Shown here piece after piece: positions 24,583 to 63,339 of a stretch of DNA of 64,000 bases. Position 1 is the first letter of the stretch; every line of letters begins with the position of its first letter. Location of the stretch: the NCBI GenBank assembly GCA_963514005.1, contig OY740787.1, forward strand, positions 22,382,001 through 22,446,000. Reading direction: 5' to 3'. The stretch comes from Raja brachyura (Eukaryota). The position numbers and the translations under genes are program-made. The notes below the pieces were generated by a model that was not told the origin of the DNA, made no database searches, and saw nothing but the letters and a program-made list of their open reading frames with translations.

Positions 24583-24964
24583 CGCTGGGAGAGCGTAGGA
24601 GTAAGTCTTGTGATGGATTGACTAAATCAAGACATGGAAGTAATCGTCAATGAAGGGAGCGATATTAACTGAAAATTAGGGCTTCTCGCTTTGCCGCTTT
24701 GACCTGAGAATTAACTTCCAATTCTGCTTCATCGTCCTGAAGTCACTTACAAACACGATTCTCTGAATCTCCTGAACAAATTTGCCTATCATACCCAGCA
24801 AAAGGGCTGGCGGAACTCTGTGGGTCAGGCAGAATCTGTAGAGGGAAATGGACAGATAATGTTTCAGGTTGGGATCCATCATCAGTCTGAAGAAGACTCC
24901 AGCATCTGAAGTCTCTTGTGTCTCCTTCTTACACTACTCAGTTTTACAGCACAACTTTCACCAT

Positions 24965-25220
24965 GTGTAAGAAGGAACTGTAGATGCTGGTTTAAATCGA
25001 AGATAGACGCAAAAAGCTGGAGTAACTCAGCGGGACAGGCAGCCTCTCTGGAGAGAAGGAATGGGTGACGTTTCTGGTCGAGACCCTTCTTCAGACTGAT
25101 GTCAGGGGAGTGGGCGCGACAAAGATCAAATGTAGTCGGAGACAGTAAGACTGGTGGGAGAACTGGGAAGGAGGAGGGGATAGAGAGGGAAAGCAAGGGC
25201 AATATGAAGTTAGAGGTCAA
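24965..25220 (-). mobile_element. Penelope-like 3' end / pLTR in inverted orientation
   Basis: Reverse complement resembles both ends of 26126-26373 and contains CTGAAGAAGGGTCTCGACCAGAAACGTC. Confidence 0.75.
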
Positions 25221-25276: not shown

Positions 25277-26373
25277 TGACTCCCACAACAATCTCGACTA
25301 TACTTCTTCCCACCCTGCTTCCTGAAAATACTCTATCCCCTACTCCGAATTCCTCAGTCTACACCAGATCTGCGCCCAAGATGAGGTGTTCCATACCAGA
25401 ATATCCGAGATGTCCTTATTCTTTAGGAAACGGGGGTTCCCCTCTCCCATCATAGATGAGGCCCTCACTCGTGTCTCTTCGGTAGCCTGGAGCTCTGCCC
25501 TTTCTCCCCCTCCCCCTTGTCGCATTAGAGACAGAGTCCCCCTAGTCCTTATCTTCCACCCCATCAGTCATCGCATACAACACATTATCCACCCAAAATT
25601 TCCGCCACCTCCAACGGGATCCCACCACGAGCCACATTTTCCCATCTCCACCCATGTCCGCCTTCCGTGGAGACCGTTCCCCCCCTCAACTCCCTGGTTA
25701 ACTCATCCCTTCCCTCTCAAACCACCCCCTCCCCAGGTATCTTCCCATGCAACCGCAGATGATGCAACACCTGTCTTTATACCTCCTCCCTTGACTCTGT
25801 CCAGGGGCCCCGACAGTCCTTTCAAGTTAGGCAGAGGTTCTGCACCTCCTCCAACCTCATCTACTGAATCCGCTATTCAAGATGTGGATTCTTATACATT
25901 GGCGAGACCAAACGCTGACTGGGCGATCGTTTCGCTGACCACTTTCGCTCAGCCCGCCTGAACCAACCTGATCTCTCTGGTGCTGGACACTTTAATTCTC
26001 CTTCCCATTCTCACACAGACCTATCTGTCCTAAGTCTCCTCCATTGTCAGAGTGAGGCTATACGTAAATTGGAGGAACAGCATCTCATATTTCGCTTGGG
26101 CAGCTTACAGCCCAGTGGTATGACTATTGATTTCTCTCACTTCAGGTAGCCCCGGCATTCCCTCTTTATCCCTCCCCCACCCAGGTCGCACTAGCTTCTC
26201 ATTTTCATCCTACAAACAGCTTATAATGGCCTGTTTCCTTAATCATCATTACTTTTTTGCATACCTTTCGTTTATTGTCTGAAGAAGAGTCTCGATCCGA
26301 AATGTCACCCATTCCTTCTCTCCAGAGATACTACCTGTTCCACTGAGTTAATCCAGCTTTTTGTGCCTATCTT
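25277..26373 (+). mobile_element. Penelope-like retroelement, 5'-truncated (RT thumb, GIY-YIG endonuclease, 3' pLTR)
   Basis: Decayed LDYTSSHP...IPYS, FRKRGFP, RVPLVLIFHP, NLIY.IRYSRCGFLYIGETKR (GIY-YIG), HFNSPSHSH...LEEQHLIFRLGSLQPSGMTID; hammerhead-like core at 26279. Confidence 0.85.
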
Positions 26374-26904
26374 AGAATAATGGTGAGGTGTTAGTGGAGA
26401 AATAAGGGATCCGGAGACATGATAAAAAATATTGGTTGACTGGAAGATGATTTGAGATCCTTACACAGTGAAGGTTGACCATTAACGCGCTTCAATCCAT
26501 TGGCACAGCCCTTGAATGTCCTAACAGAAAAAATGTCATTTAGCAACAAACCATCCACTAACCCATTTATCATTTTATCACCTGATGACATAAATTCCAC
26601 CCTTGACTGTATAATTTTACTTGAACCATTTACATTTTTTTTTGTCTCTCCAGCGACAATTCCATCTATACAGTTTTACACACATACACATTTACAGACC
26701 TGCTGAATATGGACACGTACAAGTGTAGATCCATTCACCCAATATAAGTACGCATGCACATAACAAAATATATCCATATATATTTTTCAACTTTGATCAA
26801 TCACCACCAAACTCAGAAATAATGTTATTTCTCAGGCACTCCACAAAATATTTAGCATTGGAGCTGGCTCTGGTTGTCTTTTCTTTCAGATCTGTTGCCC
26901 TTCT

Positions 26905-27129
26905 CAGGTAAACAAAAGTGCTGGAGAAACTGAGCGGGTGCAGCAGCATCTATGGAGCGAAGGAAATAGGCAACGTTTCGGGCCGAAAGACTTCTTCAGA
27001 CTGAAGAAGGGTTTTGGCCTGAAACGTTGCCTATTTCCTTCGCTCCATAGATGCTGCTGCACCCGCTCAGTTTCTCCAGCACTTTTGTCTACCTTCGATT
27101 TTCCAGCATCTGCAGTTCCTTCTTAAACA
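26905..27129. mobile_element. Fold-back (palindromic) Penelope pLTR-derived element with 13-bp TSD
   Basis: 94-bp inverted arms centred on 27000; CTGTTGCCCTTCT at 26892-26904 and 27130-27142. Confidence 0.85.
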
Positions 27130-28698
27130 CTGTTGCCCTTCTNNNNNNNNNNNNNNNNNNNNNNNNNNNNNNNNNNNNNNNNNNNNNNNNNNNNNNNNNN
27201 NNNNNNNNNNNNNNNNNNNNNNNNNNNNNNNNNNNNNNNNNNNNNNNNNNNNNNNNNNNNNNNNNNNNNNNNNNNNNNNNNNNNNNNNNNNNNNNNNNNN
27301 NNNNNNNNNNNNNNNNNNNNNNNNNNNNNNNNNNCATACTTTGTTAGCAGGAAATAGATTCTCAGCTGAAGAGCATAGTTGACCTGCTCGAGTTCTTGCT
27401 GTTCCTTCCGGTAACAGCACAATAAAAGTTTTGTGTTTTGAATTGTCCTTGACATTCTTTTATCCTACAGTGGTGGACACAGTGTGCTGAAAAACATGAC
27501 ATCATTATCACTGACAGATGCTCAAATAAATCACCTGCAAATCTGCTCCTTTTGCTTCTTCAAACCTTTGTGTCCAGAGCCGAGTGCCTCTTTGAAATTT
27601 TATTCCATGCATGATGGATAATAGGACTTTATGATTGTTCAGGAGTATGTTAGGCTTATTGAATTCCCATATTTGTTGAAGAAAAAGAATCATTGAGTGG
27701 TGTGTGGTGAGAGAATATATGTACTCTGCAGTGTTTAACAAGCAAGCTTTCTGATATGTGCCATCCATGCCTGTTGTATTATTTACTGCAGTACATTGAT
27801 CATTTTGCACTCGAGGACAACGAGGTGCAGAAAAAAAGTATGTTTCTGTCCGTCTTTCTTTCAAACCTGGCACCGGGGGACCAACCCCAGGGATACTGCC
27901 TCTTTTACACAGCTTGAATGTTCTGTTTTGAGTCTAGTTTGTTTACAAGGCCATGATTGTAGTGGTTTTCACTTTAGGTGCCACACTGTCTATGCAACTG
28001 CAACAACAAAATTAAGTTCACAAAATATCTGTAAACATAGTTCCTATTTATGAATGTTGTGGAAGCAAACAGATAGCATGGAACCAAAGAACCTCTCTCA
28101 CTCACCCTTTACCTAAAAAAGATTAGTAACATGGTCAGAGAGATAGAAAGCTCCAACATTGCCTTTATTATGCAAAAGTACGGTGTTATTTTATTCCTCA
28201 GCTGGTTAAAGTGCCATAAGATGAAAATACTTTGATGTGCCTGACTCACTGAGTCACATGAGATGAGCAATGGTACAGTACAATAGTTATATTTCTAATA
28301 GTCGCTTCTTTTAAATATCTTAAAATCAATGTATCTTTGTGAGTTAACATTGCCGGCTTTGTTTGTTTATCGAGGCTGGCAGCCCTTTTTGTGTGTGCTT
28401 ATTTCACTCCTCCATTTTAATTGTTGAGACTATTCAATCCCCATTTTCTTCCATTTTTTTCACCGCTAGCTGTAACATTAAAGGTAAATAAATACTAGTC
28501 TGGCATAGGGTGATTGGAATCATTGAAAAGAGCAGAACAGAGATGATGGAAGCAACAGTTTAAGGCAATCTGTGTTTACCTTCAAAGAATACCTCACTTT
28601 ACCAGGACGTACTTGCTGTTCCTGGCAGTATGGAGGTTACAACACCACAGTAAAAGCTCTGAAATAATTAGTCCCTTCTGTCTTTTGTTTCCTTACAG

Positions 28699-28770
28699 AA
28701 GAAATGAAGGAAGAGTATGACACTATGGGGCCTGAAGTCACACTTCAGCCAAGGAGAGGTAATGGTACAG
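28699..28770 (+). CDS. ZEB2: ZEB2 72-nt coding exon (exon 4 equivalent); absent from the ORF track
   Basis: tcttttgtttccttacAG acceptor, GTGAGT donor. Phase 1-1. Encodes (E)EMKEEYDTMGPEVTLQPRRGNGT, matching the ZEB2 EEMKEDYDTMGPE...NGT segment. Confidence 0.93.
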
Positions 28771-35631: not shown

Positions 35632-36680
35632 AAAATAAACTGCTGGAGGAACTCAGTGGGTCAAGCACAATCTGTGGAGTCAAAGGGATGATCAATGTTT
35701 AGGGTTCAGAGCCTACAGCATGACTGAGTGTGTAGTGGGAAGGTAGCCAGTATATGGAAGAGAAAGGAAGAATCAAAATAGAGGTGGTAATTGATAGTTT
35801 GTTTCAGATAAAGTGGGGGGGGGGGTGAATGATGGACAGAAGAAAATAGATGAGTGAGGGGGCGAGTTGAGACAAAGTCTGGTCATTGACAGATGGAACC
35901 AGGTGAGGGTAGAGGAAGATGGGCAGATAGAACCAGGTGGGGGAGAGATAGGAGAGGGGAACAACAGATAATAAGCCCAGGAAACAGGGTTTTTGTGGGT
36001 GGTGTGCTGATGAGACTGGGTGTGGCAGAGTGTTGAGTCCATCGGTCCCTCCACTTACTGACCAATTGAACTGGTTCCCATTGCCCGGAGAAATAGGATA
36101 GGCAACATTTCCAGTCAGGACTCTTCTTCAGATTGAAAGTCAAAGGGGGAGGGGGTAAGGGGGGGTCGGGTGGAGGGGATAGATTGGAGAGGCAAGAAAA
36201 AGCCAGGACAAATCAGGGCAGGCGCCAGGTGACTTCAAGCTGGGTGGTTCCCTTGTAGGCCAAAGAAGGTGTGATCTCAAGAGAGATGCTTTGTTGCAAA
36301 CTGTGGAACAGGTTAAATGACCAGGTGTAGGAAGGTAGCAAGGTATCTAACGAACGTTAGTGGAAGTTATTTAAAGTTAGAGAATTTTACATTCATATCA
36401 CAGGGTTGTAAGCTACCCAAGCAAAATGGGAGGTTCTGTGTTTCCAATTTGTGTGTGGCCTCACTCTGACAATGGAGGAGGCCCAGGTCAGAAAGGTCAG
36501 TATGACAATGGGAAGGGGTGTTAAAATGGTTAGAAACTGGGAGATTGTCATGGGCTTCGGCATAAGTTTTGAGCGAAACAGTCAGCTCATCTATGCTTCG
36601 TCTTGCCGATGTACAAGAGCCCACATCAGGAACTCCGGATGCAGTAGATGAGATGAGAGCTTCAGTACAATTCTTAAATG
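35632..36680 (-). mobile_element. Decayed Penelope-like remnants (two 3' ends and a GIY-YIG domain C-terminus)
   Basis: ORF 36367..36759 ends PVSNHFNTPSHCHTDLSDLGLLHCQSEATHKLETQNLPFCLGSLQPCDMNVKFSNFK, homologous to the 26.0-26.15 kb translation. Confidence 0.75.
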
Positions 36681-61740: not shown

Positions 61741-62775
61741 TTAAAACAAGAAGTGTAATGATGGTGTCTGCGGGAGAGTTAGGTTGAGGTGGAAGAATAG
61801 TGGCAGCTAAACGTAATGCGGGTGAAAGAAAGCATTCCTGATAATGGATATGATTTGAAGTTAAAATATTATCGGTTGCACACCACACTGAGGTTTAGTA
61901 CGATTTTGGCCAGACTGTGCGGGCAGCCAAGTAAAGGAATGTCACAGATCAGGGACCAGAAGTAATGGTGTTTATCATTTCAGGAAAATGTGATCTGTGC
62001 TGAAATTTGTGTTGCAACAAAGATCGTATTTTATTCTGCAAATGGCTTGTTGTCTCAGATTCATCGAAGACATCATAATTAGAGCACTCGTGCCTGAATA
62101 CTCGGTGCTGTCGTATTTATATCCTTTACTAATATTTAAATATTACTGAATCTCTCCCTGTTATTACAAAATTTGTCGGAACAAAGCTTTTTTGTGCTCT
62201 AATGAGTAACACGCTTCACTAAATATTCCACAGTATATGTAAAAATGTAATCCTGAAACAGGCAGAAGAGATCTGGTGATGCTCCCGTACCAAACAGTCT
62301 TATAATCAAGAGGGTGGGGTACATTTCGCATCCAATTAATAGTATAAATAGCATAGAATATTTGAAAGTAAGAAGATAAGTTCAAACAGAATTCAGATGG
62401 TGTGCCATCCAATAAATATTTTTATTTTAAATCTGAATAAATTGCTGCCATTAAGAAAGGTTACACAGAGATTTTTCTTTGGGATGTGTATTTCCTCTGA
62501 ACATTTGTGTTTGAACATAATTAAAATTTCAACATTAATGCCAGGCTTCAATCTGATGCTCCCACCTCTGCTATTGAATAGTCTTGTTGGCTGTTTTCTG
62601 CTCTATGTATATAGTCACATGAGAGAACTGTTGAGGCCAGGAGTTGGCATCTCTGTTCTAGAGATGTCAACTCCTGTATTGTAGAAAGGAAGAAAGCAGA
62701 TTTAACTTACTTGGAAACAGTTTCATTTTTGAAAAATAAAAAAATAGACGTAGGGATAGCTCGTATGGTAGATCA

Positions 62776-62908
62776 GTCTGAAGAAGGGTCTTGACTGAAA
62801 ATGTCACCCATTCCTTCTCTCCAGAGATGCTGCCTGTCCCACTGAGTTACTCCAGTATTTTGTGTCCACCTTCGATTTAAACCAGCATCTGCAGTTCTTT
62901 CCTACACA
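62776..62908 (+). mobile_element. Solo Penelope pLTR-derived short repeat with 7-bp TSD
   Basis: gtctgaagaagggtcttgactg...cagcatctgcagttctttcctacac; TAGATCA at 62769-62775 and 62909-62915. Confidence 0.8.
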
Positions 62909-63339
62909 TAGATCATATGGATTCTTGCTCAACGAGATTCTGTCTGATCTGACTAAGTGGGCTCAATTCTACTTTTCTCCTAATTACACTTGGTTCCCAT
63001 GAGGTCTAAAAATCTATTGATGTTAGCTTCCAAAATTGTTCACCACCTCCCAATAGTGCATGCTGCTCTGCCGCCGTTCAAGTCCCTTCATCCTCCAGAT
63101 AATATGGTGGCTTCAATGTGTCCTGCATGGCAAAAACCATAAATACGCACTGGAATCACCTTTGTATTTGGTGATGTTGGTGCTGTTGAAGAGAACCAAG
63201 AACAACAACAAATGGCAGACTTTGCTATATCTCTGCCTGTCCTAATTTCTGAGGACTTTCTTGGCTTGATTAGTTCATGTTGGGACCGTGCTAGGCTGTG
63301 AATATATGAGCATGTTGAAGCTTTCCTGGTGAGTTGGAA

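What the first reader, a model, noticed from the sequence alone, without database searches (positions are those of the whole stretch)
26892..27142. 189-bp near-perfect palindrome with back-to-back hammerhead cores, inserted as one event
Seen: arms 26906-26999 and 27001-27094 are reverse complements around a single A at 27000, and a perfect 13-bp TSD flanks the unit. Each strand reads from the centre CUGAAGA-A-(stem II, combined consensus GGGU-UUCG-GCCC)-GAAA-C-GUU. That is a hammerhead core with a palindromic (A)ACGU(U) mini helix III and an extra A after A9. Known: Penelope-like elements carry minimal hammerheads thought to cleave as dimers. The same fold-back point recurs near 4262 and 24886. 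Inference: a reproducible fold-back or template switch just upstream of the core yields MITE-like hairpin retroposons, and this one would form about 94 bp of dsRNA in the ZEB2 pre-mRNA. Caveat: only about 2 bp of helix I is evident and both cores carry substitutions.
Basis: partly seen in the sequence, partly recalled or inferred. Interest (0 to 1): 0.7.

Follow-up and report, generated by a model that had tools for sequence, protein, structure and literature searches.

The report
Two-armed Penelope insertion in skate ZEB2
This hairpin in an intron of a skate ZEB2 gene is one of many stump-sized, mirror-image insertions of a Penelope-like jumping gene, and because one arm carries the element's 35-base tail while the other lacks it, it was likely built on landing by copying the element's RNA twice, once from each cut DNA end.

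Summary
Real, and largely known. The arms match at 89 of 94 bases. A 13-bp direct repeat flanks a 225-bp insert that also carries a 35-nt extension on the right arm only. It is the hammerhead-bearing end (pLTR) of an RT/GIY-YIG Penelope-like element: inverted arm, tail and TSD are published PLE anatomy. About a third of sampled tailed copies have such an arm (29-36 of 90). Centres vary; the exact centre seen here occurs in 1 of 90, so no fixed fold-back point and no MITE. Added here: solo copies end at either of two sites 35 nt apart, and palindromes pair one of each (21 of 21 classifiable pairs in end-unbiased samples). That favours priming from both target ends over fold-back. 57% of intact cores lose homology within four bases upstream of the core; about 2% start at the cleavage site. 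Both local cores are damaged, face opposite ways and would be locked in the hairpin. The scan reported the same kind of element in a shark genome.

The parts
26892..26904 (+). Left target-site duplication (13 bp minimum)
   Evidence: Identical to 27130-27142, only two occurrences in the window
26906..26999 (-). Inverted, tail-less arm: pLTR positions -129 to -36 (numbering: -1 = 27129). Its outer end is the element's second end site.
   Evidence: solo copies end at -29 to -42 in 34 of 67
26972..26999 (-). Minimal hammerhead core, antisense to ZEB2; stem II broken by substitutions at 26989-26990; 2-bp helix I kept
   Evidence: Sequence against family stem II types
26996..27004 (.). Junction: the element's own 4-bp micro-palindrome just upstream of and including the core start; centre base 27000
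   Evidence: Same 30-nt centre at 75 places; centre base A in 13, T in 7 of 20 viewed
27001..27028 (+). Minimal hammerhead core, sense to ZEB2; G10.1-C11.1 pair changed to G-U, helix I reduced; predicted cut after 27028
   Evidence: Sequence; no Rfam hammerhead match even at E<=10
27001..27094 (+). Direct arm, pLTR positions -129 to -36
   Evidence: 92% to a solo copy at 5088-5210; 87.7% to the pLTR of a copy with a 1204-aa RT/GIY-YIG frame
27095..27129 (+). 35-nt PLE 'tail', on this arm only
   Evidence: 4555 exact copies of its last 34 nt in the genome; 30-40-bp one-sided tail described in PMC8557442 and PMC11167929
27130..27142 (+). Right target-site duplication

Best explanation
This is a single, now inert, head-to-head insertion of the hammerhead-bearing end of a Penelope-like retrotransposon, likely made when the element's enzyme cut both target strands about 13 bp apart and copied the element's RNA from both ends. 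Shown: element identity, TSD, one tailed and one tail-less arm, the same mixed pairing in other copies, solo copies ending at either site, variable junctions. Inferred: one DNA end was primed at the tail site (-1), the other at the site about 35 nt inside; both cDNAs ran through the uncleaved hammerhead and stopped 1-4 nt upstream of the core, where most copies of the family stop; the two cDNA 3' ends annealed through the 4-bp micro-palindrome with one central mismatch and were filled in. Both templates came from the same subfamily, likely sibling RNAs in one dimeric particle or one tandem RNA. The ribozyme is cargo, not the cause of the symmetry. Why cDNAs stop just upstream of the core is open: most likely the RNA's 5' end (an initiator-like start or a splice acceptor), otherwise an RT stop.
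For: Ends: 82 of 90 core-anchored direct arms end at -1 to -8 (28) or -29 to -42 (54); among 67 solo copies 26 are tailed and 34 tail-less. In the two samples not selected on ends, 38 pairs: 21 mixed, 0 tail/tail, 0 short/short, 17 with one arm ending elsewhere; 21 of 21 has p about 3e-7 if ends were drawn independently at the solo ratio (my arithmetic). All samples, some selected on ends: 56 mixed, 1 tail/tail (a complex locus), 0 short/short, 28 other, of 85. The same pairing holds in 6 of 10 ORF-bearing stretches with arms of 0.2-2.3 kb (3 of the 10 were picked as inverted pairs). Non-nested arms in 22 of 82 pairs. Arms share subfamily marks (e.g. 62 same/0 different, 47/1, 45/2). Centre base A or T as expected from repair of a mismatch (13:7). 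In vitro, the anole PLE protein cleaves and extends both strands, starts RT at two sites that define the tail, is predicted to dimerise, and uses uncleaved RNA (PMC11167929). 2703 of 4774 intact cores lose homology within four bases upstream (includes point changes), against about 2% starting at the cleavage site (287 of 16582 with a purine there, 16 of 30 viewed not point changes).
Against: [quoted passage not shown] This locus alone is symmetric and cannot tell two-ended priming from fold-back; both arms share a rare variant at -62 (5 of 379 arms), which fits one source, fold-back or later arm-to-arm conversion alike. Non-nested arms could partly be later deletions at hairpin centres. The tail- and core-anchored samples come from contig C1 only and from exact-match patterns. 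TSDs were found in only 12 of 23 inverted and 14 of 67 solo loci (narrow automatic search). No mechanism step was tested experimentally.
Confidence: 0.72

Rival explanations
1. Fold-back or self-priming: one cDNA (or an antisense template) snaps back at a micro-palindrome and is copied into the second arm, which stops about 35 nt short.
For: Proposed for PLE inverted junctions in PMC3846280 (passage). Arms share subfamily marks, and 9 rare variants are shared by both arms against 221 in one arm. Junctions cluster at self-complementary spots (-127 to -136 and -106 to -113).
Against: The short arm stops where solo copies also end; 22 of 82 pairs are non-nested; 20 of 36 junctions have filler rather than overlap; some loci have an almost full arm and a second arm only about 8-60 nt long at the proper end site.
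Confidence: 0.15
2. The hairpin has been kept or used by the host: dsRNA for editing or small RNA, or control of an 18-nt micro-exon whose donor the left arm supplies.
For: Very stable predicted hairpin; left junction present in at least three coded organisms; only micro-exon-like candidate in the 19-kb intron under my filter.
Against: Arms have drifted 5% apart, like neutral decay; 29-36 of 90 sampled tailed copies have such an arm and 4555 exact tails exist; none of the related ZEB2 proteins held carries the 6 residues (their genomes may lack the insert).
Confidence: 0.05
3. The palindrome is itself a mobile unit (MITE-like or retrozyme-like) copied as a whole.
For: 40 of 40 best-scored places match on both strands; 75 exact centres.
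Against: 21 of the 29 other loci viewed are one palindrome carried inside a larger repeat (511 exact junctions); the other 8 have six or more different centres; same-centre copies differ in arm length and subfamily.
Confidence: 0.04
4. Assembly artefact, or two separate insertions at one site.
For: Centre and right junction are not bridged by any listed contig of this locus; N run beside the right TSD.
Against: One TSD pair around both arms, 5 arm differences, left junction in independent runs, same anatomy genome-wide.
Confidence: 0.04

Closest known systems
EN+ Penelope-like element insertions with an inverted 5'-truncated copy, 30-40-bp tail and TSD (Arkhipova et al. 2013, PMC3846280; Craig et al. 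2021, PMC8557442; passages read)
   Same: Head-to-head inverted pLTR, tail on one side only, TSD around the whole unit, palindrome at the junction.
   Different: Here both arms are cut down to about 94-129 nt with no ORF; the passages seen do not state that the two outer ends are always one tailed and one tail-less, and PMC3846280 explains the inversion by self-priming.
Poseidon element of Anolis in vitro (Frangieh et al. 2024, PMC11167929; main text read, supplements not)
   Same: Two internal RT start sites bounding the tail; both strands cut and extended; hammerhead cleavage not needed.
   Different: Different clade (parent here has a Cys-rich RT-EN linker); inverted products and their joining were not described in the text read.
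Minimal hammerheads of metazoan PLEs (Cervera and de la Pena 2014, PMC4209133; parts 1-2 of 4 read)
   Same: Extra base after A9, palindromic mini helix III, 2-bp helix I as in D. virilis; pairs of motifs on opposite strands 100-700 bp apart were already noted in Schistosoma.
   Different: Cores here abut, and both local copies are damaged.
L1 twin priming (recalled, not read)
   Same: Two primings, one from each target strand, joined by microhomology.
   Different: L1 arms come from non-overlapping parts of one RNA; here both arms copy the same part.
Non-LTR retrozymes (bioRxiv 10.64898/2026.07.22.740005; part 1 of 5 read) and MITEs
   Same: Short, non-coding, PLE-derived, hammerhead-bearing; hairpin shape.
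   Different: Not a head-to-tail tandem of intact ribozymes; no fixed terminal inverted repeats or fixed length.

Membership tests
EN+ Penelope-like element (derived insertion) | Sequence is the pLTR of an element encoding RT plus C-terminal GIY-YIG | tested here: met
   7 of 8 long copies examined show GIY-YIG-type coding sequence upstream of the same tail; a related copy (pLTR 87.7% to the arm) has a 1204-aa frame with RVT_1 and GIY-YIG hits, both below Pfam's cut-off, and 1032 homologues at E<=1e-30
EN+ Penelope-like element (derived insertion) | 30-40-bp tail at one end | tested here: met
   35 nt, 27095-27129; bimodal 3' ends
EN+ Penelope-like element (derived insertion) | Inverted copy and TSD around the unit | tested here: met
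Neptune clade | Zn-finger-like linker between RT and EN (PMC8557442) | tested here: met
   Cys-rich motif seen by eye before the GIY-YIG domain; shared with Nematis
Neptune clade | RT phylogeny | not tested
   No tree built, no named references fetched
Minimal type I hammerhead | Core boxes, extra base after A9, palindromic helix III | tested here: met
   108 of 113 cores found by a core-shaped pattern read CUGAAGA, 109 have the extra A
Minimal type I hammerhead | Stem II with G10.1-C11.1 and helix I intact in this copy | tested here: not met
   + core G-U at 10.1/11.1 and helix I reduced; - core 2 of 4 stem II pairs
Minimal type I hammerhead | Covariation in stem II | tested here: inconclusive
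   Only one-sided changes between subfamilies (U-A 79, U-G 22 of 113); no recurrent two-sided change
Minimal type I hammerhead | Rfam model match | tested here: not met
   None at gathering or E<=10; Rfam may lack this minimal form
Minimal type I hammerhead | Self-cleavage as monomer or dimer | not testable with these tools
   Needs assay; genomic starts at the cut site are about 2%
MITE | Fixed ends and length, copied as a unit, uniform TSD | tested here: not met
   Variable centres, arm lengths and TSD lengths
Non-LTR retrozyme | Head-to-tail tandem units each with an intact hammerhead | tested here: not met
   Head-to-head, cores on opposite strands

The most novel reading that the evidence does not exclude
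PLE integration is an obligately asymmetric two-ended reaction: a dimeric particle primes one target strand at the tail site and the other 35 nt inside, on a short RNA whose 5' end lies 2-3 nt upstream of the hammerhead core. Every inverted PLE structure, from these 225-bp stumps to kb-long ones, would follow from it, and the skate genome would hold thousands of natural records of the reaction that predict exactly which products an in vitro assay should give.
Probability: 0.45. Interest if true: 0.62.

Novelty: new member of a known kind. Interest (0 to 1): 0.38.

Why it matters
The locus itself is ordinary PLE debris. The family statistics matter more: how PLEs make their inverted structures is called undefined in PMC8557442, and the mixed-end rule ties the two RT start sites measured in vitro to those structures with a sharp, testable prediction. 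It also means such genomes are seeded with many intronic hairpins of about 100 bp as a by-product, which can be mistaken for MITEs or miRNA precursors (one search gives sub-threshold miRNA matches only).

Tried and rejected
Cap-derived G as proof of a transcription start: G precedes the copy in 45 of 100 and 36 of 100 listed matches (hand counts; p 0.0007 and 0.03), but in the 30+30 loci viewed the excess lies mostly in joins to an inverted arm or to matching target bases (by eye), so it is not support. Spliced templates: no constant upstream exon in solo copies and no GT-AG joint to the core among the 15 of 54 joints shown for four runs whose RNA status is a guess: inconclusive. Hammerhead-cleaved RNA as main template: rejected. 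Rfam: no hammerhead family. Folding of five single cores: no structure beyond shuffles. Expression: no RNA holder listed. Empty-site allele: none among the listed pieces of four runs. Micro-exon in annotated isoforms: none found. L243 first looked like a pLTR palindrome at 1259-1526 but is a solo copy nested in an inverted arm. The left end of the carrier repeat could not be mapped. One search stopped on a script error after its first table; rerun. Literature searches listed no paper on skate PLE palindromes or on twin priming in PLEs; the library lacks most subscription papers, and Lunse et al. (PMC5785218) was not held. No covariance model was built.

Full report
Numbering used below: -1 is the last base of the element's tail (window 27129); the first C of the hammerhead core is -129 (27001).

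Observation. The palindrome is there: 26906-26999 and 27001-27094 match at 89 of 94 positions around A27000, and a 13-mer that occurs only twice in the window flanks it. The insert is asymmetric: 35 more bases (27095-27129) lie between the right arm and the right TSD. The predicted RNA hairpin is -182.5 kcal/mol, z -25. The gene is ZEB2 on the + strand, 98% identical over the large exon to Amblyraja radiata ZEB2, so the host is a skate. The insert lies in the intron between the exons ending at 9636 and starting at 28699. Public contigs run from the unique left flank into the left arm in run X1 (0 differences; possibly the source sample) and in X3 and X5 of two other coded organisms; X9 of a fourth reaches only about 25 letters in. 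Centre and right junction were not bridged.

What it is. The arm sequence is a very common repeat: 4555 exact copies of the last 34 nt, 16582 of an internal 29-mer. In 7 of 8 long copies examined the same end follows GIY-YIG-type coding sequence. A related copy, with a pLTR 87.7% identical to the right arm, has a 1204-aa open frame with RT and GIY-YIG matches (both under Pfam's cut-off) and a Cys-rich linker. It is an EN+ Penelope-like element, Neptune-type by the linker criterion in PMC8557442; no tree was built. An inverted truncated copy, a one-sided 30-40-bp tail, a TSD and palindromes at the junction are published PLE features (PMC8557442; PMC3846280). Opposite-strand hammerhead pairs were noted in PMC4209133.

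Is the palindrome a unit with a fixed centre? No. Of 29 other best matches viewed, 21 are one palindrome carried inside a larger repeat and 8 are independent, with differing centres. I took 90 of the first 92 tail matches listed on contig C1 (two near neighbours skipped). 36 have an inverted piece upstream (29 by a stricter rule). Junctions scatter, with clusters at -127 to -136 and -106 to -113; 14 of 36 overlap by 1-11 nt, 2 are blunt, 20 have filler. The exact centre of this locus is in 1 of the 90, though it recurs 75 times genome-wide as an exact 30-mer, each of 20 viewed with its own flanks. The window's sites at 4262 and 24886 are old, partial junctions of the same kind, not the same structure.

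The outer ends carry the mechanism. Among 90 core-anchored loci (30 from each of three patterns, contig C1) the direct arm ends at -1 to -8 in 28, at -29 to -42 in 54, elsewhere in 8; solo copies show both ends, 26 and 34 of 67. In the two samples not selected on ends, the 38 distinct head-to-head pairs are 21 mixed (one tailed, one short), none tail/tail, none short/short, and 17 with an arm ending elsewhere. Over all samples: 56 mixed, 1 tail/tail in a complex locus, 0 short/short, 28 other. Six of ten ORF-bearing stretches show the same pairing with arms up to 2.3 kb (three were chosen as inverted pairs). In 22 of 82 pairs the short-ended arm reaches at least 7 nt further 5' than the tailed arm, so neither can be a copy of the other unless the centre was later deleted. 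Both arms belong to the same subfamily at the non-CpG marker sites (for example 62/0, 47/1, 54/6 same/different), while rare variants are mostly private to one arm (221 against 9 shared). PMC11167929 shows in vitro that a PLE protein cuts and extends both strands from two internal start sites that bound the tail, on uncleaved RNA, and predicts a dimer; it saw no strand difference in start site.

The inner ends. Of 4774 copies with an intact 31-nt core pattern, 483, 546, 991 and 683 first differ from the element at the first to fourth base upstream and 2071 keep all four (sum). So 57% lose homology within four bases of the core, point changes included. Loose ends pile up at the same place in contigs of three other coded organisms. 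By contrast 287 of 16582 arms have a purine at the scissile base, and 16 of 30 viewed are not point changes, about 2% starting there after scaling (my arithmetic). Two cDNAs that both end 2-3 nt upstream of the core have complementary 3' ends with one central mismatch, which gives this centre with A or T (13 and 7 of 20). Why they stop there is not shown. The spot reads like an initiator (motif recalled) and also like a splice acceptor after a pyrimidine tract; in D. virilis Penelope the intron ends at the 5' end of a 2-bp helix I (PMC4209133; intron in PMC2377424). Tests for a cap-derived G and for spliced copies gave no support.

The ribozyme. The family core has the marks of minimal PLE hammerheads, with one-sided pair changes between subfamilies in stem II and helix I but no recurrent two-sided change among 113 cores. 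No Rfam hammerhead model matches. Both local cores are damaged, lie on opposite strands and would be paired with each other in a read-through transcript, so ribozyme activity at this locus is unlikely (inference).

Verdict. Single insertion, PLE origin, intronic position and hairpin potential stand. A fixed fold-back point, a MITE-like family and a paired ribozyme do not. The best model is two-ended priming at the element's two start sites with microhomology joining (0.72). Papers seen: PMC11167929 and PMC4209133 parts 1-2 of 4; the retrozyme preprint part 1 of 5; passages of PMC8557442, PMC3846280, PMC6765202 and PMC2377424; no supplements, where Fig. S2 of PMC11167929 may bear on the novelty of the mixed-end rule.

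Noticed in passing
window 26872-26913 (+): The left junction makes an in-frame 18-nt micro-exon candidate: host pyrimidine tract and CAG ending at 26889, 26890-26907, donor GT at 26908 supplied by the left arm. It would add 6 residues between two ZEB2 exons. It is the only such candidate in the 19-kb intron under a simple filter, the arm mismatch at 26911 moves the donor towards consensus, and the donor sits at the hairpin base. Not present in the related ZEB2 proteins held.
   Followed up: partly
L006-L011, L015-L023, L025-L030 (e.g. L021:1490-1901): One such palindrome, with a 12-bp duplication, sits inside a repeat over 1.7 kb long with a sharp right end (DNA-transposon-like by recall, untested) and was multiplied with it: 511 exact junction matches.
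   Followed up: partly
L241-L249: Open RT/GIY-YIG frames of 660-1204 aa and kb-long inverted arms 98-99.8% identical point to a recently active younger subfamily.
   Followed up: partly
L053, L060, L243:1414-1538, L270: Several copies inserted into older copies of the same element with clean TSDs, as expected from self-targeting.
   Followed up: no
window 4136-4305, 4806-4925, 5088-5210, 22593-22719, 24799-25100, 26279-26376, 35637-35679, 36098-36131, 60466-60532, 62772-62909: At least ten more fragments of this element family in the 64 kb, both tailed and tail-less; GIY-YIG/RT remnant upstream of the copy at 24963-25100 (frame 25326-25961 region).
   Followed up: partly
window 15418-18462 (-): Two long open frames (560 and 453 aa) that read like the endonuclease and RT of a CR1-type LINE (by eye), in the same intron.
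   Followed up: no
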